Assembly (NCBI GenBank): GCA_000998135.1
Contig: LCCV01000011.1
Coordinates: forward strand, 4,132 to 68,131
Reading direction: 5' to 3'
DNA from: Parcubacteria group bacterium GW2011_GWA2_42_14
Lineage (GTDB): Bacteria > Patescibacteriota > Minisyncoccia > Sungbacterales > GWA2-42-14
Length of the DNA stretch: 64,000 nucleotides
Shown here: positions 2,498 to 40,776 of the stretch, piece by piece
Layout of the letters: every line of letters begins with the position of its first letter
How positions within the stretch are numbered: the first letter of the stretch is position 1
Position numbers and translations under genes: made by a program
The notes under the pieces: generated by a model
Told to the model about the DNA's origin: nothing
What the model saw: only the letters and a program-made list of their open reading frames with translations
The model's database searches: none

Positions 2498-3175
2498 TTG
2501 GATTACGATTGTCGTATGCGGGAAAAACAAGAACATTTTTTTGCAAAAATGAATGGAGAAGAAGAAGCAGCCGGTCCGCTAAATGAAGTATCGGAGTTAA
2601 CAGGATTGCACGAGCGCATTTCTTTAATTATCCGCACCATAAGCGGCAAGTTGAATTTGGAGGTTACTACCGATGTTGATTTGCCTACGCTTTTGAGATA
2701 TGCCAAAGAGGGCAAGGACGCCAGAACCACGTGGTTTCGTCAGGTGATCCGCGACCCCAAAACCAGAAAGCTCATAAAAGAACGCGTTCATATACCGAAG
2801 CAAATTGTTGGAATTAATGAGAACGTCCCTAAAGGAAGGGCGGCTCATGAGGCCGGTCATGTGCTTATTACGAGGCATGCGGAATTTGTTCCTGATGAGG
2901 TATTGCAGCAATTGGGTTTTCACGCCGTGCTTCAGGCGGTTGAGGAGCGCCCGACTGACCAGGTTGTGCGGGAACGTTTTTCCGGAGCGGGGCTTTGGGT
3001 TGATGAGGCCCGCCGGGAGGGAAACCAAAGATATCGCGCCATGTCTGATGAAGAAAAAAAGCGTTTGGCTATATTCCCAAATTTATGCAGTTCGCGGATT
3101 TATGCGTTTACGCGCCCCATTATGAAGAACTGCCGCCATACGCCCCCGACGTATTGGCCGCTTATGAAAATGTGA
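2498..3175 (+). CDS. Putative Zn-metallopeptidase-like domain protein (HExxH), N-terminal part of a DUF2201-like peptidase-vWA protein
   Basis: 'AAHEAGHVLITRH' HExxH motif. Overlaps the next ORF (3085..4830) in another frame. Confidence 0.4.
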   Translation: MDYDCRMREKQEHFFAKMNGEEEAAGPLNEVSELTGLHERISLIIRTISGKLNLEVTTDVDLPTLLRYAKEGKDARTTWFRQVIRDPKTRKLIKERVHIPKQIVGINENVPKGRAAHEAGHVLITRHAEFVPDEVLQQLGFHAVLQAVEERPTDQVVRERFSGAGLWVDEARREGNQRYRAMSDEEKKRLAIFPNLCSSRIYAFTRPIMKNCRHTPPTYWPLMKM

Positions 3176-4830
3176 AGGAATACGTGGAAATGGCCGAAAA
3201 AACTCTTCCGGCTGAGGGTGCTAAGGAAAAAGACGTGGTCAGGAGCGCTAAAGAGCGGTATTCAATAACGTACGAGAAAATATGGCCGGAAATGGAAAAG
3301 CTGGTTAAAAAAGATTTGGAGCTTGAAGAGTTGAGGAAATTGCTTGAGCAGGCGTTGTCCGGCAGTGAAGGCGAAAAGGGTGATAAAAAAGAAGGCCGGG
3401 ACGCGCCTCAAGGCCAAAAAGAGGATGGAGAAACCCGGCCCGACCCGGCTAAATTGCGTGAACTTTTAAAACAACTGCCGGAAGAGTTAAAAAAGGAGCT
3501 TGAGAAAATGCGGCCTTCTCAAACCGGGGAAGAGCAGCCGGAAAAAGAAAAAACCCGGCCGGACGCGCGAAACGGGCAAGACGTGATAAATGAGGATAAA
3601 ACGGAAGAAGAAGAGGAAAACATGGAAGGAAAAGAATCCGGCGAATCGGCAAAAGGTAAAAAAGAAAAAACGGTAATTTCAGGGCAGGAAGGTGGGGAAA
3701 AACAGGAAGGAAATCCGCTTCCCCTGGACCAAATAAGCGATGAGCTGAAAAAAGAACTGCGGAAGGTTTTTGACGGTTTATCCGAAGAAGAAAAAGAATT
3801 TCTTCAGCATATGGCCCGAAAGACGCTGGAGTATATTGAGGACGAAATCGTCAGGGAATTTTCCGGAAAATTAGCGGAAGATGAGCCGGAAACGCATGTT
3901 GTATTTGAAGCGCGCCAAAAAAAAGAAGAAAAAATGAAAAAGCTGGAGGAGGCGGAAGAGCGGCTGAAACGGGAAAAGGTACTGGTTAAACACGAGCTTG
4001 AAGAAATTGAAAAAAAACAGGCAAAAATTTCCGAAAACAAGAATGGATATATGCGCGCTTATGAAGAAGTGCGGGTCCTTGATGACGCGCTTTACCGCAG
4101 GTTGGATGAGATATTTACGCCCAATATCAAGCGGAATATAAAGATGAAATCTGCCGGGCTAAAACCCAATTTGCTTAAGGTGTTTAAGTGGGAGGCGGGA
4201 ATAATGGCCGGCGCTAAAGCGCTTGACAGCAAGATTTTTGAATCATATTCCCGCCATGAGAAAAAAGATTACGTTTTTTTCATTTTAAACGATATGTCCA
4301 ACTCCATGGGGAATGGAGGAAAAATTGAGAATGATTTTAAGGCCAAAATTCTTTTATCGGAAGTTTTAAACCGGCTGGGAGTTAAATTTGCGGTTGCCGG
4401 TTTTAACGACGATTTTTTCCAGTTCAAAAATTCCGGAGAAGACCTTAACGATAAAATTCGGGAAAAAATGAACGGTATGAAGATGGTTGAAGGATATACC
4501 GATACCGGCAGGGCTCTGGTAACCGCGTCCCGGGATTTGGAAAAGGAATTTGCCAAAGAGAAATTTTTGTTGGTTCTTACCGATGGAATGCCCATGACGT
4601 TAGAAAAAGACGCGCCATCAGAAACGCACCGGGCAGTGGCGGATATCTTAAAGAAAACCAGCCAAAAATTAATCGGCATCGGGCTTGGGCCGAAAACCGA
4701 ATTTGTCAGGGAATATTTTCCCGCGTCAATAGTGGAGGAAGATGTCAGAAATCTTCCGGAAACATTGTCCGCTCTTCTTGAAGACATGATATTGAATCCG
4801 GAAAAATACGCTTATAAAAACGATAGATAG
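3085..4830 (+). CDS. vWA-domain protein with a long E/K-rich coiled-coil linker
   Basis: MIDAS-like 'FFILNDMSNSMG'. 'LVLTDGMP'. E/K-rich low complexity at ~3300-4050. Confidence 0.55.
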   Translation: MQFADLCVYAPHYEELPPYAPDVLAAYENVKEYVEMAEKTLPAEGAKEKDVVRSAKERYSITYEKIWPEMEKLVKKDLELEELRKLLEQALSGSEGEKGDKKEGRDAPQGQKEDGETRPDPAKLRELLKQLPEELKKELEKMRPSQTGEEQPEKEKTRPDARNGQDVINEDKTEEEEENMEGKESGESAKGKKEKTVISGQEGGEKQEGNPLPLDQISDELKKELRKVFDGLSEEEKEFLQHMARKTLEYIEDEIVREFSGKLAEDEPETHVVFEARQKKEEKMKKLEEAEERLKREKVLVKHELEEIEKKQAKISENKNGYMRAYEEVRVLDDALYRRLDEIFTPNIKRNIKMKSAGLKPNLLKVFKWEAGIMAGAKALDSKIFESYSRHEKKDYVFFILNDMSNSMGNGGKIENDFKAKILLSEVLNRLGVKFAVAGFNDDFFQFKNSGEDLNDKIREKMNGMKMVEGYTDTGRALVTASRDLEKEFAKEKFLLVLTDGMPMTLEKDAPSETHRAVADILKKTSQKLIGIGLGPKTEFVREYFPASIVEEDVRNLPETLSALLEDMILNPEKYAYKNDR

Positions 4831-4832
4831 TT

Positions 4833-4946
4833 GACCCCGTTAGAAATCCGGCTATACATTAATGATAAAACACGGTAAAGCGAAGCGGCTCCGCCTTACG
4901 TCTTCCGGAATAAAATTACGACTTATTTAGATTTCTAACGGGGTTG
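4833..4946. mobile_element. Family H miniature inverted-repeat element (~14-bp inverted ends CCCCGTTAGAAAT / ATTTCTAACGGGG)
   Basis: Copies at 18724-18825, 21288-21399 and 62216-62327, plus a 36-bp mini-copy at 63434-63469. Confidence 0.7.
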
Positions 4947-4978
4947 AAAATTAACGTTTTTGGTATTATGATAATATT

Positions 4979-5422
4979 ATGAAGCAGGTTTTTGATGACA
5001 AACTTAATGATTACGCGGATGGTTTTAGCGCTCTTGGCGGAAGGGCTTCTTTTCCCGTTGGCGCCATTATTGCCGATAACAAAAAAAGAAAGGGAATTAT
5101 CGCGTTTTTCAAGAAGAAAAATATTACGGTTATCAAGGCGGATAAAACGATTCATCCCGATATAATTCTCGGGAAAGTTTTTCAGTCCGTTTTAAAGAAA
5201 AAAACGGCAGTATTGGATATTTCCGAAGGCGTGTCTCCGAAAATTATCACGCATCTGGAAAACTTATCGCGGAATTTTATTGACGTGAAACTTGCTCAAG
5301 ACAAGGAGTGTACAGTTTTTCTTGATATCCCCGCCGGTTCCAAACTTCTTCTTCTTATGAATAATGACGATTATGAAAATATTTTAATGCCGGACGTTAT
5401 TTCATCGGTTTGCCGGGTTTAA
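4979..5422 (+). CDS. Hypothetical protein between the vWA and AAA genes
   Basis: ORF only; no recognisable motif. Confidence 0.25.
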   Translation: MKQVFDDKLNDYADGFSALGGRASFPVGAIIADNKKRKGIIAFFKKKNITVIKADKTIHPDIILGKVFQSVLKKKTAVLDISEGVSPKIITHLENLSRNFIDVKLAQDKECTVFLDIPAGSKLLLLMNNDDYENILMPDVISSVCRV

Positions 5423-5454
5423 TTTCGCATAAATATTACTAAATTTTCATTATT

Positions 5455-7563
5455 ATGGGCGCATTTAATTCGCCGTCATTTGGACAGGAAAATAAAAATA
5501 ATCCGGACGCTAAACAAACAAAGGCGCCTTTTAAGGTAGGGCTTATTCCGGAGGCACCCATAGCCGAAAAGAAAAAAGAAGTGAACCGGGAATTCCCCGT
5601 TCCCTTTGAATATTCTCCCGACGGAAAAAAATTGTATATTTTTGACCTAGAGCTGGAAATGCCTGTTTGTCCTCCCGAGCTTAAGCAGTTTGTTCCTCCT
5701 TTGGAAAAATTCAGCCATCTTTGTTATGACCAGCGCACCCTGGAAGTGCTTTATAAGGCCGCGGAAGCGTATAAATTAAGAGAGCCCTGCCTTTTAGAAG
5801 GAGAGCCGGCAACTTCAAAAACCACGGCAGTTGAATTGCTGGCCTCTCTTTTGGGACAGCCTTTTCGCCGCATGAATTATAACGGCCAGACCGACACCTC
5901 GGAACTTATCGGAAAATTTGTGCCTAATGACGGGGACGCGCAAATTTTGTTTGAGCAGATATTGAAAAATCCGCAATCGCTTACGGAAGAATCCAGAAAA
6001 ATTTTGCATGAAGTAAGGGACCAGAACCGGGCCCTGACGAAATTTGAATCCCAGAAAATCGCTTCCAACGAAGGGCTGAAAATTTCCGATTGGAAATGGG
6101 AAGACGGTTATCTTACGTTTTGCGCGACCAAGGGATGCATTTTGCTTAATGACGAGCTTGGTTTCGCGGAGCCGCAGATTTTAGGCCGCGGCATGAGTTC
6201 TCTTGAAAAAAATCCCAGTATTGAGGTTTCCGAAAACGGTGGACTGGTTATAAGAAAATTAACGGAGGAGGAAGAGGGCTTATGGCTGCAGGGAAAGCTT
6301 AAGGGGGTTATTCCCTTGCACCGGAATTTCCGCCAGTACGGCGCGACCAATCCCGCGGAAACTCATGCCGGACGGGTTACGTTTGAACCCGCGTATAAAG
6401 ACCGGTGGCTTGCGTATAAATTCATCCAGCCGCCAGTAAAAGAAGAGTATGCGCAGATGATGGAGCTCGCGGTATACGGAAAACAGCCGGTAGTGAAATT
6501 TTTGGGCGACAGATATCATGCCGAAGGCATGTGGCCGCTTTATCCGTCTCTTCGCGAAATCAATAATTTCAGCGGTTTTTTGGAAAAACTCGCCAAATTT
6601 CACGTAACTCTTGAGGAAATGGCGCGGAAGCGCGAAATCGGCATGTCTAAGAAAGATAAATATATTTTTACGCGAAGAACGCTTATTGAATTTCTGGATT
6701 ATCTGGAACATAAAAGGATTGTGGTTGACAGGAACAGCGGGGAGCATTATTCCGTAGAAGATATGCCCAAAGAAGTCATTTTGCGGGCGATTCAATATTA
6801 TTATCTTGATAAAATAAGCGACTCGAATGATTTGGAAAAAGTCATGGACCAGCTTGATGCCATCGGCATTTCTTCGGGCAATTGGACGCATAAGTTCGGT
6901 GAGGAAGCAACAAGAAAACCGCCTTCTGGCGCCGGTGCCGGAACGGGAGCCGGGGTAGAAAGTGGGAACGGGCCGGAAACCGTGCAGAGAAAAAAGTTTA
7001 CAGATGCAAATGGTGTTTTTGCCGAGAGAGGAGAGCGCGCGGTCTTGGAAGATTTGCGCGTGGGCGATAAAGTAATGCTCACACGATACGGCATGAACAA
7101 TGTAACTGATAAAGTTAAAGACGCAAAAAAACTTGTTATTGTTGGTTTTATGGATGATGATAGAGTTATAGTGCAGATAGGTGATAATGTTGTTGTAGCA
7201 GATCCCTTAGAAGAACATCGTAAAGTTTATGAAAAAATTAACTCAGCGGAAATCCCCGAAAATAAAAATGATAATCAAACGTTTCCTACGATAGGAGGAA
7301 ATGAAGTAAGGGTTGGGTCTGAGAAAGAAATGAAAGGTTTCGGATACGATTTTAGAGTCGGCGACCGGCTGGTTTTAAGGAATCAAAAAGGTCATTACCC
7401 CCCAGAGGTGAGAAACGCCAAAACATTGACCGTTGTCGGCTTTAGTTTAAGAAAGGGCAATGTTGTTATCCAGATTGACGGAGAAAAATGTTTGGTTGAC
7501 AGCGCGGGCGTGATAAAAGGACGTTTTGAGAACCTATCAGAAATTGGGAGATTAAATGGATGA
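5455..7563 (+). CDS. AAA_5/MoxR-like ATPase with a long C-terminal extension containing two ~50-aa repeats
   Basis: Degenerate Walker A 'GEPATSKTTAVELLA'. Walker B-like 'ILLNDELGFAEP'. Repeated 'LTRYGMNNVTD...LVIVGF..DDRVIVQIGDNVVVAD' and 'RVGDRLVLRNQ...LTVVGFSLRKGNVVIQIDGEK'. Confidence 0.5.
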   Translation: MGAFNSPSFGQENKNNPDAKQTKAPFKVGLIPEAPIAEKKKEVNREFPVPFEYSPDGKKLYIFDLELEMPVCPPELKQFVPPLEKFSHLCYDQRTLEVLYKAAEAYKLREPCLLEGEPATSKTTAVELLASLLGQPFRRMNYNGQTDTSELIGKFVPNDGDAQILFEQILKNPQSLTEESRKILHEVRDQNRALTKFESQKIASNEGLKISDWKWEDGYLTFCATKGCILLNDELGFAEPQILGRGMSSLEKNPSIEVSENGGLVIRKLTEEEEGLWLQGKLKGVIPLHRNFRQYGATNPAETHAGRVTFEPAYKDRWLAYKFIQPPVKEEYAQMMELAVYGKQPVVKFLGDRYHAEGMWPLYPSLREINNFSGFLEKLAKFHVTLEEMARKREIGMSKKDKYIFTRRTLIEFLDYLEHKRIVVDRNSGEHYSVEDMPKEVILRAIQYYYLDKISDSNDLEKVMDQLDAIGISSGNWTHKFGEEATRKPPSGAGAGTGAGVESGNGPETVQRKKFTDANGVFAERGERAVLEDLRVGDKVMLTRYGMNNVTDKVKDAKKLVIVGFMDDDRVIVQIGDNVVVADPLEEHRKVYEKINSAEIPENKNDNQTFPTIGGNEVRVGSEKEMKGFGYDFRVGDRLVLRNQKGHYPPEVRNAKTLTVVGFSLRKGNVVIQIDGEKCLVDSAGVIKGRFENLSEIGRLNG

Positions 7564-8149: not shown

Positions 8150-9706
8150 TTATGGAATTTTATTGGCGTTTTTTGCCAGTTCCACCAAAAATCTTACTCC
8201 GGTTCCGGATGCGCCTTTTGCCAAGAATTGTCCTTCAATAGTGGTCATGGTCGGCGCGATATCAAGGTGCATCCACGGATAATTTCCCACGAATTGTTTT
8301 AAGAATATTGCTCCGGCAATTGCTCCGCCTTGTCCCTTTTTTCCGGTATTGGCAATATCGCCAAATGTTCCTTTCACGTCATCATAGTACTCGTCCCATA
8401 AAGGGAGCGGCCAGACATAATCGCCGGAATTCATGCCAATGTCGCGCGCGAATTTTTCTAATTTTTCGTTTGTGGTTCGGCCTTGCTCACCAGAACTCGA
8501 AAATAGCGCGATGGCGCGTTGTCCGAGCGCTACTGTCGCGGCGCCCGTAAGCGTTGCCGCGTCAACAATTAGTTTAGGGTTAAGTTTTTGCGCATATCCC
8601 AGAGTATCTGCGAGAATAATCCGTCCTTCGGCGTCGGTGTTCAGCACTTCAATGGTTTTTCCGGTTATGGTTTTTAAAATATCTCCCGGGTGATAGCTTG
8701 AACCGGATGGCATGTTTTCTACGGCCGGAATAAGCCCGATTATTTTTACCGGCAGTTTCATTCGGGCAATAGCGGCCATAGCGTGTATGACCGCGGCTCC
8801 CCCTGACATATCCATATGCATTTCATAGATTGCTTCTGACGGTTTTAAATTAAGTCCGCCGGTATCAAAAGTAACTCCCTTGCCGGCAAAAACTATTGGC
8901 TGTATGACTTTGTTTGGTAATCCTTTCTTCCCCAAAGGGGCGGGTTTTCCAGAATCATATTTCATAACAATAAATCGCGGTTTTTCGTCGGAACCCTTTG
9001 ATACGCCCAATATTCCGCCCATGCCGAGTTCCTTGATTTTTTTTTCGTCAAATACGTCAACTTTTATTCCGGTTTTTTTGCCGATTTCAAGAGCGGCTTG
9101 GGCAAGTTTTTGCGGAGTCATTTCTCCTCCCGGGGTGTTGGCAAGAATCCGGCAATTATTCGTTTCTTCGCCGATAATTAAACCTTCTTCCAGTCCTGTT
9201 TTTATTGATGGAGAAACCGGAACTGGAACAATTATTTCAATTTCATTTATTTCCGGCCATCCTTCTTTGGGCGGTTCTTTATATTTGTTGAATGTGAAAT
9301 CCGCGAGTATGACATTTTCCGCAAATAGTTGCGTTATCCGCCGTATAGGCAAAGGATTAAATTTAAAGTCATTTAAGAATACCGAGGATGACTTAATCCT
9401 GTGGTCTTTAAGATATGTGACCAATTTTCTTGCGAAAAGAATATATTTTTTTTCGTTCCATTCATTCGTTTTTCCGAGATTGGCAAGTACAATTAATTGG
9501 TCCGGATTTGACGGCAGATGCACTTCTCTGAATTTTTCCTGCGCTGTTGTGAAGTCATGCGCCATGATTTTGGCAATGTAGGCCGCGTCTGTTTGGGAAA
9601 GTTTTTTTAAATAAGGGTGAGCCGGTTTTTTTTCGGGTGTGAAAAAAGAAACAAGGACGGCCTTGTTTTTTGTTAAACTAGGTTTGTGAGATAAGATGAC
9701 CTTCAT
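8150..9706 (-). CDS. pepA: Leucyl aminopeptidase (M17 family)
   Basis: 'VLNTDAEGRIILADTL' M17 signature. 518 aa. Confidence 0.75.
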   Translation of the reverse strand: MKVILSHKPSLTKNKAVLVSFFTPEKKPAHPYLKKLSQTDAAYIAKIMAHDFTTAQEKFREVHLPSNPDQLIVLANLGKTNEWNEKKYILFARKLVTYLKDHRIKSSSVFLNDFKFNPLPIRRITQLFAENVILADFTFNKYKEPPKEGWPEINEIEIIVPVPVSPSIKTGLEEGLIIGEETNNCRILANTPGGEMTPQKLAQAALEIGKKTGIKVDVFDEKKIKELGMGGILGVSKGSDEKPRFIVMKYDSGKPAPLGKKGLPNKVIQPIVFAGKGVTFDTGGLNLKPSEAIYEMHMDMSGGAAVIHAMAAIARMKLPVKIIGLIPAVENMPSGSSYHPGDILKTITGKTIEVLNTDAEGRIILADTLGYAQKLNPKLIVDAATLTGAATVALGQRAIALFSSSGEQGRTTNEKLEKFARDIGMNSGDYVWPLPLWDEYYDDVKGTFGDIANTGKKGQGGAIAGAIFLKQFVGNYPWMHLDIAPTMTTIEGQFLAKGASGTGVRFLVELAKNANKIP

Positions 9707-9796: not shown

Positions 9797-9979
9797 TTAA
9801 ACCTTATGCAGTTTCTTCAAACACTTTACACATGTTTTTACTCTTTTGCCGTTAGCAAGTTTAGCCCATTGCAAATTGGGATATTTTCTTCCTCTCCAGG
9901 TTAAGTTATAATGGCCTCGAAGGAGTTTTCGTTTTCCTCCCATAACCGAGCCCTTTTTACATATTGTACAAACTTTCAT
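9797..9979 (-). CDS. rpmB: 50S ribosomal protein L28
   Basis: 'MKVCTICKKGSVMGGKRKLLRGHYNLTWRGRKYPNLQ...CVKCLKK'. The ORF-track start at 10120 runs through a repeat; the true start is at 9979. Confidence 0.7.
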   Translation of the reverse strand: MKVCTICKKGSVMGGKRKLLRGHYNLTWRGRKYPNLQWAKLANGKRVKTCVKCLKKLHKV

Positions 9980-10107: not shown

Positions 10108-10749
10108 ATGGAGAATGCAACCCAGTTCATAATCCAAATCGCCGTCCTTATTTTTTCTGTTGTGGTTCATGAAGTATCCCACGGATATGCCGCTTTGGCT
10201 TTGGGCGACAAGACCGCTAAATACGCGGGACGTCTTACTCTTAATCCGGTTAATCACTTTGACCCGTTTGGCTCTTTTTTACTGCCTCTGTTTACTTATT
10301 TTACAACCGGATTTATTTTTGGCTGGGCTAAGCCCGTGCCATATAATCCGTATAACCTTCGTAACCAAAAATGGGGTCCGGCTTTGGTGGGCGCGGCCGG
10401 CCCTCTTTCAAATATTTTTTTGGCGGTTTTTTTTGGCATTGTTTTGCGGATAATGATTTCATACTCCTTGGTCGGTTCCGCGCTTTTTGCTAATTTTTTT
10501 CAGATAGCCACATTCATTGTATTCCTTAATTTAGTTCTGGCGGTTTTTAATTTGGTTCCGATTCCTCCGCTTGACGGCTCCAAGGTCTTTTTCACGCTTT
10601 TGCCGTATCAATACCGGCACATTCAAGCATTTATGGAGCAATACGGTTTTATGTTGCTTTTGGCTTTCATTTTTTTCTTTTCTAATTTAATTTTTCCGGT
10701 GGTTTTGTTTTTGTTCAGGATTATTACCGGTGTTATGCCTGTTTTTTGA
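10108..10749 (+). CDS. M50-family (site-2-protease-like) membrane metalloprotease
   Basis: 'VVHEVSHGYAALALGD' HExxH in a TM helix plus 'NLVPIPPLDGSKVF' (LDG motif). Polytopic membrane protein. Confidence 0.65.
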   Translation: MENATQFIIQIAVLIFSVVVHEVSHGYAALALGDKTAKYAGRLTLNPVNHFDPFGSFLLPLFTYFTTGFIFGWAKPVPYNPYNLRNQKWGPALVGAAGPLSNIFLAVFFGIVLRIMISYSLVGSALFANFFQIATFIVFLNLVLAVFNLVPIPPLDGSKVFFTLLPYQYRHIQAFMEQYGFMLLLAFIFFFSNLIFPVVLFLFRIITGVMPVF

Positions 10750-10817
10750 AATCTTGCCATTTGGGAGTCATTGTTTTAAGGTAAAAACACCAAGCTCTTT
10801 AAAAATAATCGCGGATT

Positions 10818-12278
10818 TTGTCAATGCAAAAACGCATTTTTGGTACGGAAAACGAATATTCTTTTGCTAAGAAGTTCGGAAAAGGAGGGGGCATAGAGTC
10901 GGAAAGCGCGAATATATTATTATTTCCGTTGTTTCAGAGTAGCGATTCGTATGAACTCTTTAAACGTTATCGGGTTATTACTAAATCTTCAAATCTTGCT
11001 GAGAAACGGTTTTGGCTCGGCTCTAACGGCGGACTATTTTATTTTGATTACGTTAATGAAAGTATGTTTCCCGAATATTCCACGCCGGAATGTGATTCGG
11101 TAAAACTTTGCGTCGCCCATGACAAGGCCGGAGAAATATTTGTTAATGATGTCAGGCGCGCTTCGGCAAAAGAGAATAAGCCTATTTTCGTTGATGATTT
11201 TATAATTTCTAAAAATACTACTATTTATTCCAAAGAGGAGGAGGGAGCGCAATGCGTCGGATGCCATGAAAATTATCTTGCCGATTTTAGATTTGATCCG
11301 GTTCGTATCAGTTTGAATATGTCTCTTCCTTATCCAGTATCTCAACTGTTTTGCAATTTTTTAACGCCATTTCTTATTTCCCGTGTTATTATCCATGGCG
11401 CCGGAGGTATAAGGTGGAGCAGGGAGTCGGGCTGGCATTATGTCATATCGCAAAGGGCTTTTGCCATTAAAAAGCTGACCGGTTCCGAAACATTACGTGA
11501 TAGGACATTAATACAATTTAAAGAGGAATGCGCGCCGCCGGAATATAAAAGAATGCATTTGATTTATTCCGATCCGAATATGTCTTCTTTTGCCGCTTTT
11601 CTTAAATTCGGGACTACGCATCTTGTTCTTCGCGCTTTTGAGGAAAATAACGATTTGCTGCCGCCGGTTAATGTTGGCAATCCCATACACAAAATGTATG
11701 ATTTTTCAAAGGATATCAGTTTAACCAGAAAAGTTGCGGATAGCAGGACCGGAAAGGAATATACCGCGATTCAAATTCAGCGCGAATATCTTAATTTGGT
11801 TTTAAAAAATATCAATGGTTTTTCCGAAGAAGAAAATAATACTTTGGAACTTTGGCAGTGGGTTTTGGATAAGCTTGAAGAGAATCCGGAAGAACTTTAC
11901 CGCCATCTTGACTGGGTTACTAAACTCCACTATTTGAAAGCGGCCGTTAAAGATATTTTTTCGCCCAAGGGCCGGTTGTTTGATTTTTTGTATTCGGATG
12001 TTAGCGAAAACGGAATTTATAACAAATTGCGTGAAGCCGGCCTGGTTGAAGAATTTGTAACCAGAGAAGAGATTGCCAGCGCCTTGGATAATCCGCCTCC
12101 GACCAGGGCATGTCTTCGTTCGCGTTATATCCGGACCATCCTGGATGAAAAACATTGTTCCTGGCACGTGGATTGGCACTTGGTGAACGAGAATCCGAAA
12201 TTTTATCTTAATGACCCGTTTTCAGAGCATAATGAAGAACTGGAAAAATTTCTTGAATCATTGCGAATAAAATCATGA
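10818..12278 (+). CDS. Pup-ligase/deamidase family protein (PafA/Dop homolog)
   Basis: 'MQKRIFGTENEYS'. 'NGGLFYFDYVNESMFPEYSTPECDSVKLCVAHDKAGE'. 'VGCHENYLA'. 'SRVIIHGAGGI'. 'HLIYSDPNMSSFAAFLKFGTTHLVL'. 'DNPPPTRACLRSRYI'. 'HVDWHLVN'. Collinear with M. tuberculosis PafA motifs. Confidence 0.7.
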   Translation: MSMQKRIFGTENEYSFAKKFGKGGGIESESANILLFPLFQSSDSYELFKRYRVITKSSNLAEKRFWLGSNGGLFYFDYVNESMFPEYSTPECDSVKLCVAHDKAGEIFVNDVRRASAKENKPIFVDDFIISKNTTIYSKEEEGAQCVGCHENYLADFRFDPVRISLNMSLPYPVSQLFCNFLTPFLISRVIIHGAGGIRWSRESGWHYVISQRAFAIKKLTGSETLRDRTLIQFKEECAPPEYKRMHLIYSDPNMSSFAAFLKFGTTHLVLRAFEENNDLLPPVNVGNPIHKMYDFSKDISLTRKVADSRTGKEYTAIQIQREYLNLVLKNINGFSEEENNTLELWQWVLDKLEENPEELYRHLDWVTKLHYLKAAVKDIFSPKGRLFDFLYSDVSENGIYNKLREAGLVEEFVTREEIASALDNPPPTRACLRSRYIRTILDEKHCSWHVDWHLVNENPKFYLNDPFSEHNEELEKFLESLRIKS

Positions 12279-12304
12279 CCCGCTTTTCCCGCGGGTTTTT
12301 TTGT
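12278..12304 (+). terminator. Rho-independent terminator after the pafA-like gene
   Basis: CCCGC-TTTTCC-GCGGG followed by TTTTTTT. Confidence 0.4.
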
Positions 12305-12314
12305 CCGCGGGAAC

Positions 12315-12491
12315 CATAATTGGACTGTTGCCGAATGGCCCTTTTCCATTTCTGTCATTCTGACTCTGAGCAATGCGAAGGGGAAGAATCTCAATGTTTT
12401 CAATGTTTTCGAGTGGCTGAGTTCCTTCACGGAGTTTACACTGAGCGAAGCGAATGTGTTCAGGATGACATTCGGCAACAGTCCCATAATG
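12315..12491. repeat. Composite palindrome: outer 24-bp inverted repeat (CCATAATTGGACTGTTGCCGAATG) enclosing two inverted family-I units (GTCATyCTGA-hairpin-GAAGAATCT type)
   Basis: Family I also at 20660-20714, 38578-38610 (inside map) and as the ends of the GIY-YIG element. Confidence 0.6.
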
Positions 12492-12564: not shown

Positions 12565-12975
12565 ATGCCCACCATTAATCAGTTGGTAAAAAGAGGCAGA
12601 ACTCCCAAAAGAGCAAAGTCAAAAACGCCGGCGCTTGAGCGCGGTTTTAACGTAAAGAAAAACAGACCGGTACCATATTCGTCGCCTTTTAAAAGAGGTG
12701 TTTGTATAAAGGTGACTACGGTTACTCCGAAAAAGCCGAATTCCGCCTTGAGAAAAGTTGCCAGAGTTCGTCTTACCAACGGCATGGAGGTTACGGCCTA
12801 TATTCCCGGCGAAGGGCATAATTTGCAGGAACACTCGGTGGTGATAATCCGCGGCGGAAGAGTTAAAGATTTGCCCGGAGTTAGATATCATATTGTAAGA
12901 GGAATTTTGGATATGACCGGAGTTGAGGGAAGGAAGCAGCAGCGTTCAAAATATGGCGCGAAAACCCCCAAATAG
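12565..12975 (+). CDS. rpsL: 30S ribosomal protein S12
   Basis: '[12 protein letters not shown]...'. Conserved S12. Confidence 0.9.
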
Positions 12976-13044
12976 CGACAAGCGACATGTAACATGTGAC
13001 ATGGAATTTGTGCCTTGTCTCATGTCACTTGTCTCATGTCTCTC
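12975..13044. repeat. Family A heptamer-arm palindrome ((AGACAAG)n / (CATGTCA)n), inverted orientation
   Basis: GACATGTAACATGTGACATGG...CTTGTCTCATGTCACTTGTCTCATGTCTC. Confidence 0.7.
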
Positions 13045-13048
13045 GGAG

Positions 13049-13516
13049 ATGAGACGAAAAAGAAAAGTAAAAAGAATAATTGCGCCAGACCTGAAGTATG
13101 GTAACCAGCTTGTGGCCAAGTTTATTAATTATGTAATGAGAAAGGGGAAAAAGAGTGCGGCCCAAAGGGTTGTTTATAAAACTTTTGATACTATGCAGCA
13201 AAAATATCAGGTGGAGCCGCTGGCCACTTTTGATTTGGCCATAAAGAACGCGTCCCCGGCCTTGGAGGTAAAAGCAAAAAGAATTGGAGGAGCGACTTAT
13301 CAGGTGCCGCGGGCAGTTCGGGGTGAGCGAAAAATGCAGTTGGCTTTTACCTGGATTTTGAACGCGGCCAGAGCAAAAAAAGGAAGGCCGATGCATGAAA
13401 AATTAGCCGAAGAATTAATGGCCGCCTCCAAAAACGAGGGGATAGCAGTTAAGAAAAAGATGGACACCCTTCGCATGGCTGAAGCAAATAAGGCGTTTGC
13501 TCATTTTGCGTGGTAA
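13049..13516 (+). CDS. rpsG: 30S ribosomal protein S7
   Basis: 'MRRKRKVKRIIAPDLKYGNQLVAKFINYVMRKGKK'. The ORF-track start at 12923 lies in a heptamer repeat; corrected to the in-frame ATG at 13049. Confidence 0.8.
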   Translation: MRRKRKVKRIIAPDLKYGNQLVAKFINYVMRKGKKSAAQRVVYKTFDTMQQKYQVEPLATFDLAIKNASPALEVKAKRIGGATYQVPRAVRGERKMQLAFTWILNAARAKKGRPMHEKLAEELMAASKNEGIAVKKKMDTLRMAEANKAFAHFAW

Positions 13517-13965
13517 TCACTTTATTTTTTATGAAAGAGGTATTTCACAAAAATTTTCATATTTTGGAAAGAGTTGAGCCGGGTGAGGGGAAGAGGAAGC
13601 GAATGTTTATAATGGCGACATGGAGGCCCAAACAGGATATTTGGCTCATTGGCACGGCCATCGGGCTTTTGTGCTGTAAGTCGGATAATTATGAAATTTA
13701 TCTTGCGGTTTCGAAAAATCCATCGCTTGAGCCAAGAAAATTTTTAGTCGGGCTCAAAAAAGATTGGTTATTTTATCAGCAACGTGATGTCTATACATAT
13801 TCTTCCGGCATTAACGATTTAGTAAGTTATCATTTTTTACCGGAGGGATATGGTTTTTTAATCAAAAAAGGAGAGCCGGTTTATATCAAAGTCGGCGCGG
13901 TGAATTTAACCATCAATCCGTTGGAATACGATGCATTTTGCAATCTTTATTATACTTTGGCGTAA
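13510..13965 (+). CDS. Hypothetical protein inserted between rpsG and fusA
   Basis: ORF only; unusual position. Confidence 0.3.
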   Translation: MVITLFFMKEVFHKNFHILERVEPGEGKRKRMFIMATWRPKQDIWLIGTAIGLLCCKSDNYEIYLAVSKNPSLEPRKFLVGLKKDWLFYQQRDVYTYSSGINDLVSYHFLPEGYGFLIKKGEPVYIKVGAVNLTINPLEYDAFCNLYYTLA

Positions 13966-14277
13966 TTTTAATTTATGGAAATAGGAAAAGAAAAATTTGA
14001 ACCCGAGAAACGGCTGTATAAAATTCCTGAAGAAATTCGGAAAGAGCTGGAAAGCATCCGCGAGGATAAATTTTGGACAGTTGAAAATCTTGAACGGCAG
14101 TTTGAAGATGACATTGCTTTTGGCGCAAAAATGTGGACTGGTTTTGATGCAATTCTGGAAAGGAAGAATTTGAGAAAAGAAAATGGAAGAATTTGAAAGA
14201 GGGTTGCAACAGCCGCCACAAGAAAAAATTGAATAATAATTTTTGATTTTTTGCGTCTTTAGTCGTATAATACAATT

Positions 14278-14502
14278 ATGCCGACCATTACCATAGAAAT
14301 TCCTAAAAAAGTTTTAGAAAACGGAACAGGACGTCGGCTTTTGGTTGTTGACCCAAAGCAATTTGAAAAAGATTTACGCAGGCAATGGGAGGAGGGGGAA
14401 GATGTTGAGGATACGAAACGTCTATTGAGTGTTGCGCAAGATAAAAAAAATCAAAAACGAATTCCGTATGCTAAAGTAAAAAAACAGTTTAATCTGCCAT
14501 GA
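14278..14502 (+). CDS. Putative type II antitoxin
   Basis: 74-aa ORF whose stop overlaps the toxin start (ATGA). Confidence 0.35.
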   Translation: MPTITIEIPKKVLENGTGRRLLVVDPKQFEKDLRRQWEEGEDVEDTKRLLSVAQDKKNQKRIPYAKVKKQFNLP

Positions 14503-14762
14503 CCCGGATTTTCTTCAGACCAAAAGCGCTTGCGGGACTTGGTGTAGCGCCGCGGAAATATCAATTAATCATTAACGAAGCAATACGAATTTTAGAACAA
14601 GGCTTATTTCCTCCTCATACCAAGAAGTTGGAAGATTCGATGGATGGTTACCGCACCCGCGTAGGCCGGTGGCGGATTTTATTTACTCTCAAGAGCGGTG
14701 AAATTGAAGTTGTGGATATTTTTCTTAAAAAAGGCAAAAGCGATTATAAACGCAGATATTAA
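14499..14762 (+). CDS. RelE/ParE-fold type II toxin
   Basis: 'GYRTRVGRWRILFTLKSGEIEVVDIFLKKGKSDY' RelE/ParE C-terminal signature. Confidence 0.5.
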   Translation: MTRIFFRPKALAGLGVAPRKYQLIINEAIRILEQGLFPPHTKKLEDSMDGYRTRVGRWRILFTLKSGEIEVVDIFLKKGKSDYKRRY

Positions 14763-17635: not shown

Positions 17636-17872
17636 ATGGCTGAAGATTTACCAATAATTTTCTCTCGGCATGCGTTGTTAAAACTTGAGCATAGAAATTT
17701 AACGAAAGAAATGGTGGTTGCAGTCATAACTAAGCCGTCATATCTTATTCTTGCTGGTGACAAGTTTCATGCTTATAGAAGATTGGGAAAGTTATATCTC
17801 AAAGTCATATTTGTAAGAACAACAAACGTTATTATTGTCCTTACGCAACACTTTGTTAAAAAAGTACCATGA
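17636..17872 (+). CDS. DUF4258-like toxin
   Basis: 'IIFSRHALLKLEHRNLTKEMVVAVI' resembles DUF4258. Stop overlaps the next ORF. Confidence 0.45.
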   Translation: MAEDLPIIFSRHALLKLEHRNLTKEMVVAVITKPSYLILAGDKFHAYRRLGKLYLKVIFVRTTNVIIVLTQHFVKKVP

Positions 17873-18111
17873 TTTATACATATGACCCGATGGCTGATGC
17901 CATCAATATAACATTTAAAAAGGGCAAGGTTGCGGAAACGAAAGAAATTGCCGATGGGGTGCTGCTTGATATTGATAAAAACGGAAGCCCGCTTTATTTA
18001 GAAATTCTTTTCGCGCGCAAACGTTTTGGAAAAGAGAAAGTCGGCAATTTGTCGTTAAAACCGTTTTTATATTCTTCAGCAAAAGTTAGAAACGGCATTG
18101 CGGTAAAATGA
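17869..18111 (+). CDS. DUF2283-like antitoxin
   Basis: 'YDPMADAINITF...DGVLLDIDKNGSPLYLEIL' resembles DUF2283. Confidence 0.45.
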   Translation: MIYTYDPMADAINITFKKGKVAETKEIADGVLLDIDKNGSPLYLEILFARKRFGKEKVGNLSLKPFLYSSAKVRNGIAVK

Positions 18112-18214
18112 GAAATTAAGCGCCAAGAAGTCGGCTTTCCCGAAGAAGGCGAGGAAGAAGATGATATTTAAATATTCGTAATTCGTCAAAATTCGTAATT
18201 AGTAGGATAATAAT

Positions 18215-18487
18215 ATGTTTAACGGATTTAAAATAAACAAAGGCGAAAAATTCATAATGGTGGAAAACGGCAAGCCCACTTATGTGGTGATGAGTTATGA
18301 TGATTATGAAAATATGCTGGCACGGCGCCCGTCTGAAAGCTCCGCTCACCATGGACGGCCTGAAGTTGGTTTGGCAAACGACAGAGTTGGACGGGCAGAA
18401 GAAGAATTCAGCGCCCGCCTGGTTATGGATACGCCGAATGTGCCGGAGGATATTAGCAAGATAAGATTAGAAGATCTTCCGCTCTGA
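18215..18487 (+). CDS. Phd/YefM-like antitoxin (orphan)
   Basis: 'KFIMVENGKPTYVVMSYDDYENM'. Confidence 0.35.
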   Translation: MFNGFKINKGEKFIMVENGKPTYVVMSYDDYENMLARRPSESSAHHGRPEVGLANDRVGRAEEEFSARLVMDTPNVPEDISKIRLEDLPL

Positions 18488-20767: not shown

Positions 20768-20995
20768 GTGGAGAAAGCAGAGTTTATGAATACCCTAACT
20801 ATTCCTCGAAAATTAGTACAAAATGACGATTTGGTGGTTGTGCCTCGCAGAGAATACGAGAGATTATTTCGATTTTGGGCCGCGGCTGAACTACTCACTG
20901 CAAGCCAGAAGAAAGCGATAAATAAGGGTGTCCGAGAAATAGCGCGGGGAAAATTTTTTACTTCAAAACAAGTAAAACATGAATTGGGACTATAG
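20768..20995 (+). CDS. Putative antitoxin
   Basis: 75 aa, overlaps the downstream RelE-like ORF. Confidence 0.35.
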   Translation: MEKAEFMNTLTIPRKLVQNDDLVVVPRREYERLFRFWAAAELLTASQKKAINKGVREIARGKFFTSKQVKHELGL

Positions 20996-21230
20996 ATTAT
21001 CGGATAAAGCGCTAAAGAACCTCAAGGAATTTCCGAAGCAGGATCGGCTACGTATTTATGAGGCTCTTGAGACAATGAAAGATGCCCCTTTTATCGGAGA
21101 TATAAAACCAATCCAGGGAGAAGAAAATCTTTGGCGGCGCAGAATTGGCGCTTATCGAATATACTTCCGGCCGTTCCACGAAAAAAGGGTCTTTGATATT
21201 CCCGGGATTGAACGCAAACGAAGCCATTGA
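20979..21230 (+). CDS. RelE/ParE family toxin
   Basis: 'LWRRRIGAYRIYFRPFHEKRVFDI' RelE/ParE C-terminal core. Confidence 0.55.
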   Translation: MNWDYRLSDKALKNLKEFPKQDRLRIYEALETMKDAPFIGDIKPIQGEENLWRRRIGAYRIYFRPFHEKRVFDIPGIERKRSH

Positions 21231-27617: not shown

Positions 27618-27690
27618 CGACAAGCGACAAGAGACATGAGACAAGGATTTAATTTCCATGTCGCATGTCACATGTAGCATGTCACATGTA
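27618..27690. repeat. Family A heptamer-arm palindrome
   Basis: GACAAGCGACAAGAGACATGAGACAAGG-loop-CATGTCGCATGTCACATGTAGCATGTCACATG. Confidence 0.7.
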
Positions 27691-28029: not shown

Positions 28030-28098
28030 CGACATGGGACAAGAGACATGGGACAAGGAACGTAAAACTTGTTACATGTTGCATGTCACATGTCACAT
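28028..28098. repeat. Family A heptamer-arm palindrome
   Basis: AGCGACATGGGACAAGAGACATGGGACAAGG...TTACATGTTGCATGTCACATGTCACATG. Confidence 0.7.
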
Positions 28099-28635: not shown

Positions 28636-28800
28636 GACATGGGACAAGAGACATGAGACAAGGAAAGTAGAGACAAGGGACAAGTGACATAAAACATGGT
28701 TTTTATTAACAGCTTTACGGATAATCCGTATTAGCGGTAATCCATGTCGCATGTTGCATGTTATCAAAAACTTGTCACATGTTATATGTTACATGTCACA
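28636..28800. repeat. Family A heptamer-arm palindrome, long copy
   Basis: Same arms with a ~60-bp internal loop. Confidence 0.65.
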
Positions 28801-32671: not shown

Positions 32672-32745
32672 CGCGACAAGAGACAAGAGACAAGAGACAA
32701 GGAATTTATTTCCATGTCACATGTCACATGTCACATGTCACAAGG
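32672..32745. repeat. Family A heptamer-arm palindrome
   Basis: (GACAAGA)4...CATGTCACATGTCACATGTCACATGTCACAAG. Confidence 0.7.
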
Positions 32746-34756: not shown

Positions 34757-34823
34757 CGGCAAGAGACAAGGGACAAGAGACATGGATTTCCATGTCACAT
34801 GTCACATGTCACATGTCACATGT
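34757..34823. repeat. Family A heptamer-arm palindrome
   Basis: GCGGCAAGAGACAAGGGACAAGAGACATGG...(CATGTCA)4. Confidence 0.7.
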
Positions 34824-39909: not shown

Positions 39910-39973
39910 CAAGAAACATGAGACAAGGATGCGTTCCATGTCCATGTCCATGTCCATGTCACATGTCACATGA
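39900..39973. repeat. Family A heptamer-arm palindrome (variant with a (CATGTC)n hexamer run)
   Basis: AACAAGTGACAAGAAACATGAGACAAGG...CCATGTCCATGTCCATGTCCATGTCACATGTCACATG. Confidence 0.7.
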
Positions 39974-40705: not shown

Positions 40706-40776
40706 AGATATGAGACAAGGGACATGATACAAGGAATGTAAAACTTGTCGCATGTTGCATGTCACATGTCACATGA
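40706..40776. repeat. Family A heptamer-arm palindrome
   Basis: GAGATATGAGACAAGGGACATGATACAAGG...CATGTTGCATGTCACATGTCACATG. Confidence 0.7.

What the first reader, a model, noticed from the sequence alone, without database searches (positions are those of the whole stretch)
10108..12304. Pup-ligase/deamidase (PafA/Dop) family gene in a CPR-like genome, next to an M50 protease and the ribosomal operon, with no Pup or proteasome genes in view
Seen in sequence: the 486-aa protein matches mycobacterial PafA motif by motif along its whole length. The matching blocks are the N-terminal 'RIFGTENEY', 'EYSTPECDS', 'CHENYL', 'HGAGG', 'SDPNMS', 'IQREY', 'PPPTRACLRSRYI' and 'DWHLVN'.

Established knowledge: this ligase family conjugates or deamidates the small protein Pup (or UBact in some Gram-negative and candidate lineages). 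It normally sits beside pup, arc/mpa and proteasome subunits.

None of those is within 10 kb on either side here. The neighbours are an M50 intramembrane protease, rpmB and rpsL, and the gene ends with its own terminator.

Inference: either the partner genes are elsewhere, or this is a proteasome-independent tagging enzyme that may act on a ribosomal substrate.
Basis: partly seen in the sequence, partly recalled or inferred. Interest (0 to 1): 0.62.

Follow-up and report, generated by a model that had tools for sequence, protein, structure and literature searches.

The report
Orphan PafA/Dop-like enzyme in Sungbacteria
A tiny-genome groundwater bacterium (Candidatus Sungbacteria) carries an intact enzyme of the family that attaches or removes the bacterial ubiquitin-like tag Pup, but it belongs to a small separate branch of that family with no tag or proteasome gene nearby, so its substrate is unknown.

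Summary
Window 10824-12278(+) encodes a 484-aa protein that matches Pfam Pup_ligase over its full length (E=1.6e-80). An AlphaFold model superposes on PafA and Dop equally (TM about 0.8). The ATP-binding GhExE motif, the catalytic Asp and the Arg contacting the tag's C-terminal residue are conserved. The window comes from Candidatus Sungbacteria, and GenBank already annotates this protein as "PafA2".

It is neither PafA nor Dop. It scores far below both NCBIfam cutoffs. It sits in a 100%-bootstrap clade of about 14-20 known sequences; every member that carries a source name is from Sungbacteria/Sungiibacteriota. The residues that distinguish PafA from Dop are not conserved in this clade.

No Pup/UBact-like ORF, proteasome subunit or Mpa-type ATPase occurs in the 64 kb window or in the sequenced flanks (4-21 kb) of four other loci. 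Other CPR bacteria do carry complete clusters with a "...REGQ" tag.

The position next to M50 and rpsL says nothing about function. In 30 of the 49 related CPR contigs where both genes are visible, M50 abuts rpsL directly. Elsewhere the gap holds unrelated cargo, so the ligase is an insertion.

Most likely it is an active, stand-alone enzyme acting on a C-terminal Glu/Gln of an unidentified partner. Moderate interest.

The parts
10824..12278 (+). Gene for a 484-aa PafA/Dop-family (Pup_ligase, PF03136) enzyme of the Sungbacteria-type orphan clade, subclade A. It is identical to GenBank KKS37311.1 / OHA13895.1.
   Evidence: Conserved residues: GhExE (G7, E9, E11), catalytic D75, E84, E89, H148-E149-N150-Y151, R187, R227, K233, H245, D250, and the C-terminal-domain motifs D363-W364, Y390, T427-R428, R432, W451.
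12277..12297 (+). Intrinsic-terminator-like hairpin (7 bp stem, 5 G-C pairs, 7 nt loop) followed by a T-run, overlapping the stop codon.
   Evidence: The number of terminator-like sites in the scanned region does not exceed the shuffled controls, so only the position supports a role.
10108..10749 (+). Short M50 (site-2-protease-like) membrane metalloprotease. It is a flanking backbone gene that bounds the insertion slot on the left. It is not evidently a functional partner.
9797..9979 (-). rpmB (ribosomal protein L28), part of the conserved rpmB(-)/M50(+)/rpsL(+) backbone.
   Evidence: Sequence read; tblastn with this peptide finds L28 upstream of M50 in many CPR loci.
12565..12975 (+). rpsL (S12), first gene of the str operon. 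It bounds the insertion slot on the right.
12315..12491 (.). 177-bp element with 23-nt terminal inverted repeats (91% complementary), lying in the slot between the ligase terminator and rpsL.
   Evidence: The arms occur only here within the window.

Best explanation
What it is. The gene encodes an intact and probably active ATP-dependent enzyme of the PafA/Dop family. It has the glutamine-synthetase-like carboxylate-amine ligase fold plus the C-terminal domain specific to pupylation enzymes. It belongs to a small, deeply separated clade whose named members are all Candidatus Sungbacteria. That clade is orthologous to neither the ligase PafA nor the depupylase Dop.

How it got here. It reached its present position as cargo inserted into a variable slot between M50 and rpsL. 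Its ribosomal and M50 neighbours are therefore incidental.

Inferred mechanism. By analogy with PafA and Dop, it binds ATP/Mg2+ through the GhExE motif. It then phosphorylates the side-chain carboxyl(amide) of a C-terminal Glu/Gln presented by a peptide or protein partner, held by the invariant Arg227 and by Thr223. Asp75 acts as the catalytic base for either amide-bond formation with a lysine (ligase) or hydrolysis (amidase).

What is unknown. The partner is not encoded nearby. It is most likely a highly divergent small tag or a specific protein encoded elsewhere in the genome, and the system works without an adjacent proteasome.

Shown versus inferred. Shown: family, fold, residue conservation, clade, and genomic context. 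Inferred: that the enzyme is active, the nature of its substrate, and ligase versus hydrolase direction.
For: - Family and fold. PF03136 over the full length, E=1.6e-80. AF2 model pLDDT 90.5, pTM 0.92. TM 0.81 to PafA-Pup 4BJR and 0.80 to Dop 5LRT.
- Core residues invariant across the clade: E9, E11, D75 (= PafA D57 / Dop D94-95), E84, E89, HENY, R227 (= Cglu PafA R201, which salt-bridges Pup's C-terminal residue; PMC8599861). H245 corresponds to Dop H241 and K/R233 to Dop R227, the phosphate ligands (PMC8599861, PMC7947786).
- Purifying selection. 47 invariant columns across 13 sequences that share only 32-50% identity with the window protein.
- Separate clade. 100% bootstrap in two NJ trees. 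PafA has 97-98% and Dop 75-76% support.
- Clade size. Profile searches show a score gap: 13 clusters at 576 bits or more, then 366 bits. There are about 14 representatives among 1.84 billion. All named members are Sungbacteria/Sungiibacteriota.
- No partner genes. No tag, proteasome or Mpa homologue in the window or in the other Sungbacteria-type loci fetched.
- Insertion into a backbone. Among 80 CPR M50 loci, both M50 and rpsL are visible in 49. In 30 of these rpsL follows within 200 bp, in 10 more within about 470 bp, and in 8 the gap is 0.8-4.8 kb; the seven of those gaps examined hold unrelated genes. Only the known Sungbacteria contig has the ligase.
Against: - No substrate or tag was identified, and only part of the genome could be examined. 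Partners elsewhere cannot be excluded.
- Motifs strongly conserved in both PafA and Dop are degenerate here. The His of 'HPEY' is lost in subclade A. 'RPIINTRDEPH' is reduced to 'RTLIQFKEE', with the essential PafA R193 replaced by Lys. This could mean altered chemistry or an altered substrate.
- Activity is inferred from conservation only.
- The trees are distance-based NJ without an outgroup, so the deep branching order is uncertain.
Confidence: 0.6

Rival explanations
1. It is part of an ordinary Pup/UBact-proteasome pathway. The tag, Mpa/ARC ATPase, 20S subunits and a Dop-type partner are simply encoded elsewhere in the Sungbacteria genome.
For: - Other CPR genomes have complete clusters. 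L085 has Mpa-like AAA (TIGR03689, 367 bits), Dop-like, PrcB, PrcA, a 67-aa tag ending REGQ, and 2 further paralogues. L173 has the same cluster with 3 further paralogues.
- Such tags are too divergent for Pfam or NCBIfam to detect, so a distant tag could be missed.
- Only about 64 kb of the genome was examined.
Against: - In every complete system seen, the genes are clustered. Members of the window clade are never clustered with them in five independent contexts.
- The clade is phylogenetically separate from the proteasome-linked CPR paralogues, which form their own 100% clade.
- None of the hits that carry a Sungbacteria/Sungiibacteriota name falls outside this clade, though most hits are unnamed.
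Confidence: 0.2
2. It is a Dop-like hydrolase (amidase, deamidase or isopeptidase) and not a ligase.
For: - The best sequence matches in the PDB are Dop: 2e-42 for 9CKU and 2e-37 for 4B0R, against 1e-33 for PafA.
- It has Dop-type residues at 4 of the 22 positions from Hecht et al.: S86 and P88 in 'EYSTPE', and G220 and E222 in the alpha-loop. It has PafA-type residues at only 2 (PMC7947786).
- The alpha-loop region 211-227 is modelled as a short helix, a strand and coil, not the long helix of PafA (PMC8599861).
Against: - There is no Dop-loop. The segment between GhExE and the NG motif is about 20 residues shorter and lacks the conserved WD..E.P..DARG stretch.
- There is no His after the catalytic Asp (Dop H95/H96).
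- There are 8 residues between the Asp and the Glu of 'EY'. PafA is the form with an insertion here (5 residues against 4 in Dop), which points the other way.
- The NCBIfam PafA score is slightly higher than the Dop score (211 against 197), and only the PafA alignment is end to end.
- The discriminating columns vary within the clade.
Confidence: 0.25
3. It modifies a ribosomal protein or works together with the adjacent M50 protease.
For: M50 lies immediately upstream in 4 of 5 independent contexts, and rpsL lies downstream in 3.
Against: - The same rpmB-M50-rpsL arrangement without any ligase is the norm in related CPR contigs. rpsL follows M50 within 200 bp in 30 of the 49 loci where both are visible.
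- The slot carries unrelated cargo in other lineages.
- One clade member has neither neighbour (L090).
- No ribosomal protein in the window ends in Glu or Gln.
Confidence: 0.05
4. It has reverted to small-molecule chemistry, acting as a gamma-glutamyl-amine or glutamate-cysteine-type ligase or as an amidase on a free metabolite, and no longer acts on a protein tag.
For: - The family derives from glutamine-synthetase-like ligases (PMC8599861 introduction).
- It is an orphan gene with no tag.
- Motifs near the tag's C-terminal binding site ('NTRDEPH', the alpha-loop) are degenerate.
Against: - The pupylation-specific C-terminal domain and its motifs remain invariant: LDWV.K, Y.D, PP.TRA..R, W451.
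- The fold match to PafA and Dop (TM 0.8) is far better than to YbdK, GCL or GS (0.48 or less).
Confidence: 0.1
5. It is a decaying remnant of a lost proteasome cluster and has no function.
For: There are no partner genes nearby, and several family motifs are degenerate.
Against: - The ORF is intact.
- Catalytic residues are invariant across about 20 sequences that have diverged to roughly 30-50% identity.
- The clade has two ancient subclades (A and B) and tandem paralogues, which indicates retention and expansion.
- GC content matches the flanks.
Confidence: 0.03

Closest known systems
PafA, the Pup-protein ligase of Actinobacteria and Nitrospirae (TIGR03686; PDB 4B0T, 4BJR)
   Same: - Same Pfam family and the same two-domain fold (TM 0.81).
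- End-to-end alignment.
- The GhExE motif, the catalytic Asp, HENY, and the Arg that contacts Pup's C-terminal residue are all conserved.
- No Dop-loop.
- Extra residues after the catalytic Asp.
   Different: - Scores 211 bits against a cutoff of 551.
- Falls outside the PafA clade (98% bootstrap).
- Only 2 of 22 PafA-specific positions match.
- 'SHPEY' is replaced by 'MFPEY', and 'RPIINTRDEPH' by 'RTLIQFKEE'.
- The N-terminal segment is about 18 residues longer.
- No pup, mpa or prcBA genes nearby.
Dop, the depupylase/deamidase (TIGR03688; PDB 4B0R, 5LRT, 7OXY, 9CKU)
   Same: - Best PDB sequence hits.
- TM 0.80.
- 'EYSTPEC' is identical.
- The alpha-loop has G..ET, including the equivalent of Dop T217.
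- The alpha-loop is modelled without a long helix.
   Different: - Scores 197 bits against a cutoff of 492.
- Falls outside the Dop clade.
- Lacks the conserved Dop-loop and the His next to the catalytic Asp.
Proteasome-linked PafA/Dop paralogues of other CPR/Patescibacteria (L085 = GCA_002402995.1; L173), which resemble the UBact-type clusters reported in Gram-negative and candidate phyla (Lehmann et al. 2017, cited from memory)
   Same: - Also from the CPR superphylum.
- Multiple Pup_ligase paralogues per genome.
- About 30-35% identity to the window protein.
   Different: - Those genes sit in an Mpa-Dop-PrcB-PrcA-tag-ligase cluster with a 67-aa tag ending REGQ.
- They form their own 100% clade.
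- The window clade has none of these partners.
Single-copy PafA/Dop homologues of Planctomycetes, used as the outgroup by Hecht et al. 2020 (PMC7947786)
   Same: - Stand-alone family members equidistant from PafA and Dop (about 30% identity).
- They align only partially with the Dop-loop.
- Their function is unknown.
   Different: - Different lineage.
- The Planctomycetes sequence sampled here (P0105) does not group with the window clade and lacks the catalytic Asp in the alignment.
Proteasome-less pupylation in Corynebacterium (established knowledge, cited from memory)
   Same: It is a precedent that PafA/Dop chemistry can operate without a 20S proteasome.
   Different: Corynebacteria keep canonical pup, pafA, dop and arc genes in a cluster. 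Here no tag or ATPase is seen.

Membership tests
Pup-ligase/deamidase family (Pfam PF03136) | Full-length profile match above the gathering threshold | tested here: met
   271.7 bits against a cutoff of 25, E=1.6e-80, residues 4-453 on profile 1-439/441.
Pup-ligase/deamidase family (Pfam PF03136) | [quoted passage not shown] | tested here: met
   AF2 model pLDDT 90.5. Foldseek TM 0.81 to 4BJR and 0.80 to 5LRT over about 500 columns. Other carboxylate-amine ligases score 0.48 or less.
Pup-ligase/deamidase family (Pfam PF03136) | GhExE nucleotide-binding motif and the catalytic Asp (PafA D57 / Dop D94-95) | tested here: met
   G7-T-E9-N-E11 and D75 are present. They are invariant or nearly invariant across 50 family members.
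PafA (Pup-protein ligase, TIGR03686) | Score at or above the NCBIfam equivalog cutoff | tested here: not met
   211.4 bits against a cutoff of 551.3.
PafA (Pup-protein ligase, TIGR03686) | Falls within the PafA clade | tested here: not met
   The PafA clade (97-98% bootstrap) excludes it. The window clade is separate with 100% support. These are NJ trees only.
PafA (Pup-protein ligase, TIGR03686) | PafA-specific conserved residues (Hecht et al. 2020, Table 1), including D-V-G-S-H and the alpha-loop SSATTRS | tested here: not met
   Only 2 of 22 positions are PafA-type (F34, R225).
PafA (Pup-protein ligase, TIGR03686) | A Pup substrate, and linkage to pup, mpa and prcBA | tested here: not met
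   None found in the 64 kb window or in the other clade loci fetched. The rest of the genome could not be tested.
PafA (Pup-protein ligase, TIGR03686) | ATP-dependent isopeptide ligation of a C-terminal Glu to a lysine | not testable with these tools
   Requires biochemistry.
Dop (depupylase/deamidase, TIGR03688) | Score at or above the NCBIfam equivalog cutoff | tested here: not met
   196.8 bits against a cutoff of 492.3. The alignment covers only residues 66-442.
Dop (depupylase/deamidase, TIGR03688) | A conserved Dop-loop of 40-65 residues before strand beta2 | tested here: not met
   The segment is about 20 residues shorter than in Dop and lacks the WD..E.P..DARG motif seen in all Dop sequences aligned.
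Dop (depupylase/deamidase, TIGR03688) | The D-H-A-H-P-E-Y signature, with His next to the catalytic Asp | tested here: not met
   The window has D-YVNESMF-PEY.
UBact-type conjugation system | A small tag gene adjacent to ligase and proteasome genes | tested here: not met
   No hit to a CPR tag profile: best E=3.5, against 8e-45 for the positive control. No suitable small ORF was found.
Glutamate-cysteine ligase / YbdK carboxylate-amine ligases | Best profile or fold match to GCS2 or GshA | tested here: not met
   No such Pfam hit. Foldseek TM is 0.41-0.48 with 9-11% identity.

The most novel reading that the evidence does not exclude
Sungbacteria may carry a self-contained, proteasome-independent protein-modification system built from a third lineage of the PafA/Dop family. 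Subclade A (the window gene) has a PafA-like but longer insertion after the catalytic Asp and would act as the ligase. Subclade B has Dop-like spacing and keeps the His, and would act as the hydrolase. Both would act on an unrecognised tag or directly on a specific protein's C-terminal Glu/Gln. That would be a new bacterial ubiquitin-like pathway in an episymbiotic, reduced-genome lineage.
Probability: 0.2. Interest if true: 0.7.

Novelty: new variant of a known kind. Interest (0 to 1): 0.4.

Why it matters
Pupylation is the only known bacterial tagging pathway built on glutamine-synthetase-type chemistry. It has been studied almost entirely in Actinobacteria, where PafA and Dop are treated as the two functional types.

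A third, orphan lineage with an intact active site in ultra-small CPR bacteria would show that this chemistry has been reused outside the Pup-proteasome setting. The paralogue pair (subclades A and B) would also give a natural comparison for how ligase and hydrolase activities diverge.

It also gives a practical caution. In CPR genomes the ribosomal str/S10 region is full of inserted cargo: toxin-antitoxin genes, repeats, and this ligase. Adjacency to ribosomal genes is therefore not functional evidence there.

The gene is already annotated as PafA2 in GenBank, so the family assignment itself is not new.

Tried and rejected
- The single genome-contig scan, using the clade alignment, was taken over by the generic motif [KR]R[IA][FY]G[ILT]ExEY. 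It returned only actinobacterial PafA loci, so no CPR genomes could be scanned.
- The homologue search with the CPR tag of L085 found only the tag itself. Pfam and NCBIfam do not recognise that tag. Tag absence in the window therefore rests on a two-sequence profile and on feature inspection.
- Extending beyond the window gave only 4.9 kb more upstream, holding a DNA-binding protein, ComEC and a beta-lactamase-fold protein. Nothing was obtained downstream.
- Literature searches combining UBact, pupylation or proteasome with CPR, Patescibacteria or Sungbacteria found nothing relevant.
- I looked for shared accessory genes among the five contexts (L082 335/342-aa/YunG, L091 143/375-aa, L090 neighbours, WGR protein). 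None recurs.
- I considered the upstream AAA_5 (702 aa) and VWA (581 aa) pair as a possible unfoldase partner. I rejected it: it is a MoxR/VWA-type pair, not Mpa-like, and is absent from the other contexts.
- I considered actinobacterial contamination and rejected it.
- I tried to classify the protein as ligase or hydrolase from the discriminating residues of Hecht et al. The result was inconclusive because those columns are not conserved within the clade.
Full report
**1. Observation**

The region holds two same-strand genes. An M50 metalloprotease lies at 10108-10749. An ORF runs 10818-12278. All homologues start MQKRIFG, so the real start is the ATG at 10824, giving 484 aa.

Pfam assigns the protein to Pup_ligase PF03136 over its whole length (E=1.6e-80). 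Its neighbours are:
- rpmB on the minus strand, about 9797-9979;
- an M17 leucyl aminopeptidase at 8150-9706(-);
- rpsL, rpsG and fusA downstream.

A hairpin plus T-run at 12277-12297 overlaps the stop codon. Exact-sequence look-ups identify the organism as Candidatus Sungbacteria (RIFCSPLOWO2_12_FULL_41_11 / Parcubacteria GW2011_GWA2_42_14). The protein is KKS37311.1 / OHA13895.1 and is already named "Proteasome accessory factor PafA2".

**2. Absence of partner genes**

- Six-frame phmmer with M. tuberculosis Pup and with a CPR tag found nothing (best E=2.8).
- A profile built from two CPR tags gave a best E of 3.5 in the window and in the other clade loci fetched. The positive control scored 8e-45.
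- Inspection of all intergenic ORFs of 30-130 aa found none with an acidic helix and a C-terminal G[QE].
- tblastn with a CPR Mpa-like ATPase, PrcB, PrcA and tag gave nothing below E=0.4.
- Pfam scans of the non-ribosomal ORFs show no proteasome or Mpa domain.
- The upstream AAA_5/VWA pair is MoxR-like and is not conserved with the ligase.

**3. What the protein is**

NCBIfam scores are 211 bits for PafA (cutoff 551) and 197 bits for Dop (cutoff 492), so it is neither equivalog. The best PDB sequence hits are Dop (2e-42) followed by PafA (1e-33).

An AlphaFold2 model built on a 50-sequence alignment is confident (pLDDT 90.5, pTM 0.92). It superposes equally on PafA-Pup 4BJR (TM 0.81) and on Dop 5LRT (TM 0.80). 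YbdK, GCL and GS reach only 0.48 or less.

*Conserved residues.* P0069 serves as a proxy for M. smegmatis PafA numbering. Functional residues are taken from PMC7947786 and PMC8599861. On that basis:
- The clade keeps E9/E11 (GhExE), D75 (catalytic Asp), E84, E89, HENY and R227. R227 corresponds to the Arg that salt-bridges Pup's C-terminal residue.
- It mostly keeps T223 (Dop T217) and H245 (Dop H241).
- At the phosphate-binding Arg (PafA R193 / Dop R227), 11 of 13 clade members have Lys or Arg; the window protein has K233.
- The C-terminal-domain motifs LDWV.K, Y.D, PP.TRA..R and W451 are invariant.

*Differences from both PafA and Dop.*
- Eight residues (YVNESMFP) lie between the catalytic Asp and the Glu of 'EY', against 5 in PafA and 4 in Dop.
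- The His of 'HPEY' is lost.
- 'RPIINTRDEPH' is degenerate.
- The segment between GhExE and beta2 is of intermediate length and has no Dop-loop motif.
- Of the 22 discriminating positions from Hecht et al., the window protein is PafA-like at 2 and Dop-like at 4, and those columns vary within the clade.
- The alpha-loop is modelled without the long helix seen in PafA.

The ligase-versus-hydrolase direction cannot be decided from sequence.

**4. Clade and distribution**

The first search gave few close relatives: 47%, 43%, then 37% identity or less. A profile of the clade shows a clear gap, with 13 clusters at 576 bits or more and the next at 366 bits. An exhaustive HMMER pass over 1.84 billion representatives found 2,069 family members at E<=1e-30. 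Only about 14 of them are at 371 bits or more.

NJ trees (432 columns, 200 bootstraps) give four groups:
- the window clade, 100% support, 12 and then 20 sequences;
- PafA, 97-98%;
- Dop, 75-76%;
- a separate 100% clade of proteasome-linked CPR paralogues.

The window clade splits into subclade A (the window gene; 81%) and subclade B (99%). Subclade B keeps Dop-like spacing and the His before 'EY'. All named members are Sungbacteria/Sungiibacteriota.

**5. Genomic context**

There are five independent contexts:
- the window: rpmB(-), M50, ligase, rpsL;
- Sungbacteria 02_FULL_51: rpmB(-), M50, three tandem paralogues (B, B, A), rpsL;
- L082: M50, two unknown genes, YunG, ligase, rpsL;
- L091: M50, ligase, unknown gene;
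- L090: ligase between an SLT/LysM gene and an unknown gene.

None has a proteasome, an Mpa-type ATPase or a tag within the 4-21 kb of flanking sequence available. No accessory gene recurs among them.

By contrast, two other CPR contigs carry full clusters: Mpa-like AAA, Dop-like, PrcB, PrcA, and a 67-aa tag ('...DDIL.D...RVNETD.REGQ'), followed by two (L085) or three (L173) further paralogues. Pup-type systems therefore exist in the CPR, but the window clade is not part of them.

**6. Is the M50/ribosomal adjacency meaningful?**

I scanned metagenomes with an M50 alignment and obtained 80 CPR loci. Both M50 and rpsL are visible in 49 of them. In 30 of these rpsL follows M50 within 200 bp, in 10 more within about 470 bp, and rpmB often lies upstream. 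Only the already known Sungbacteria contig contains a ligase.

In 8 loci the gap is wider, 0.8-4.8 kb, and the seven examined hold unrelated genes: a DHH-like protein, ftsE/ftsX-like genes, pilin-like proteins and surface proteins. In another locus a surface-repeat protein follows M50. The ligase is therefore cargo inserted into a variable slot of a conserved backbone.

The same genome also has toxin-antitoxin genes inserted between fusA, tuf and rpsJ. Adjacency gives no support for a ribosomal or M50-linked function.

**7. Interpretation**

*Shown.* This is an intact, conserved member of the PafA/Dop family with a complete core active site. It belongs to a separate, rare clade in which every named sequence is from Sungbacteria. 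It is a stand-alone insertion, with no partner genes within 64 kb.

*Inferred.* It performs ATP-dependent activation of the side chain of a C-terminal Glu/Gln, followed by ligation or hydrolysis. The partner is unidentified and encoded elsewhere. The system probably works without a proteasome.

*Rivals.* Canonical partners elsewhere in the genome (0.2). Dop-like hydrolase instead of ligase (0.25; this concerns direction and is compatible with the main view). Small-molecule chemistry (0.1). Ribosomal or M50 coupling (0.05). Non-functional relic (0.03).

**8. Novelty and score**

The family assignment is already in GenBank. Stand-alone PafA/Dop homologues are known in Planctomycetes (PMC7947786), and proteasome-less pupylation is known in Corynebacterium.

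What is new here:
- the delineation of a third, orphan clade in Sungbacteria with A and B subclades;
- the demonstration that its ribosomal neighbourhood is incidental.

I rate it as a new variant of a known kind, with interest about 0.4.

Noticed in passing
window 12982-13035, 27658-27685, 28076-28098, 28786-28799, 32714-32741, 34792-34821, 39956-39971, 40752-40774: Tandem copies of the heptamer ATGTCAC (2-4 units) lie just upstream of, or across, the start codons of rpsG and several S10/spc-operon genes and of two later genes. There are 29 matches against 0.14 expected by chance. They create spurious 'MSHVTC...' N-termini in ORF calls.
   Followed up: partly
window 12315-12491: A 177-bp element bounded by 23-nt inverted repeats (91% complementary) lies between the ligase terminator and rpsL. 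The arms are unique within the window. It could be a MITE-like insertion or a structured RNA.
   Followed up: partly
window 17636-18487 and 20768-21230: Toxin-antitoxin-type small genes are inserted inside the str/S10 ribosomal region: a DUF4258 / DUF2283 pair, a weak sub-threshold Phd/YefM-like match, and a ParE toxin with an upstream 75-aa partner. Further unannotated small ORFs lie at 13510-14762.
   Followed up: partly
window 62332-64000 (+), running off the end of the window: A translational GTPase (GTP_EFTU, D2 and EFG_III domains) has a PD-(D/E)XK_3 nuclease domain (residues 89-202) inserted into its GTPase domain.
   Followed up: no
window 48377-51969: An Eco57I/MmeI-type fused restriction-modification enzyme (879 aa) is followed by a HipA_C kinase-like gene (318 aa) whose start overlaps it, and then a 103-aa ORF. 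This may be a defence islet, in a low-GC stretch (0.32 at 50-52 kb).
   Followed up: no
window 3085-7563: A VWA-domain protein (581 aa), a 147-aa ORF and an AAA_5 MoxR-like ATPase (702 aa) form a same-strand trio upstream of the aminopeptidase. The trio is conserved in the sister assembly (L172) but is not found with other clade members.
   Followed up: partly
L085 7894-8097 and L173 2609-2812: A 67-aa Pup/UBact-like tag ('...GPKPGGPGSGKK...DDIL.D...RVNETD.REGQ') lies in CPR proteasome clusters. Pfam and NCBIfam models do not recognise it, and it has no other homologue in the 5.8-billion-protein index. These clusters hold 3-4 Pup_ligase paralogues each.
   Followed up: partly
L081 5350-10253 (= L086 6597-11500): Sungbacteria 02_FULL_51 carries three tandem paralogues of the clade (two of subclade B, one of subclade A). 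The regions upstream of the two B copies are also duplicated.
   Followed up: partly
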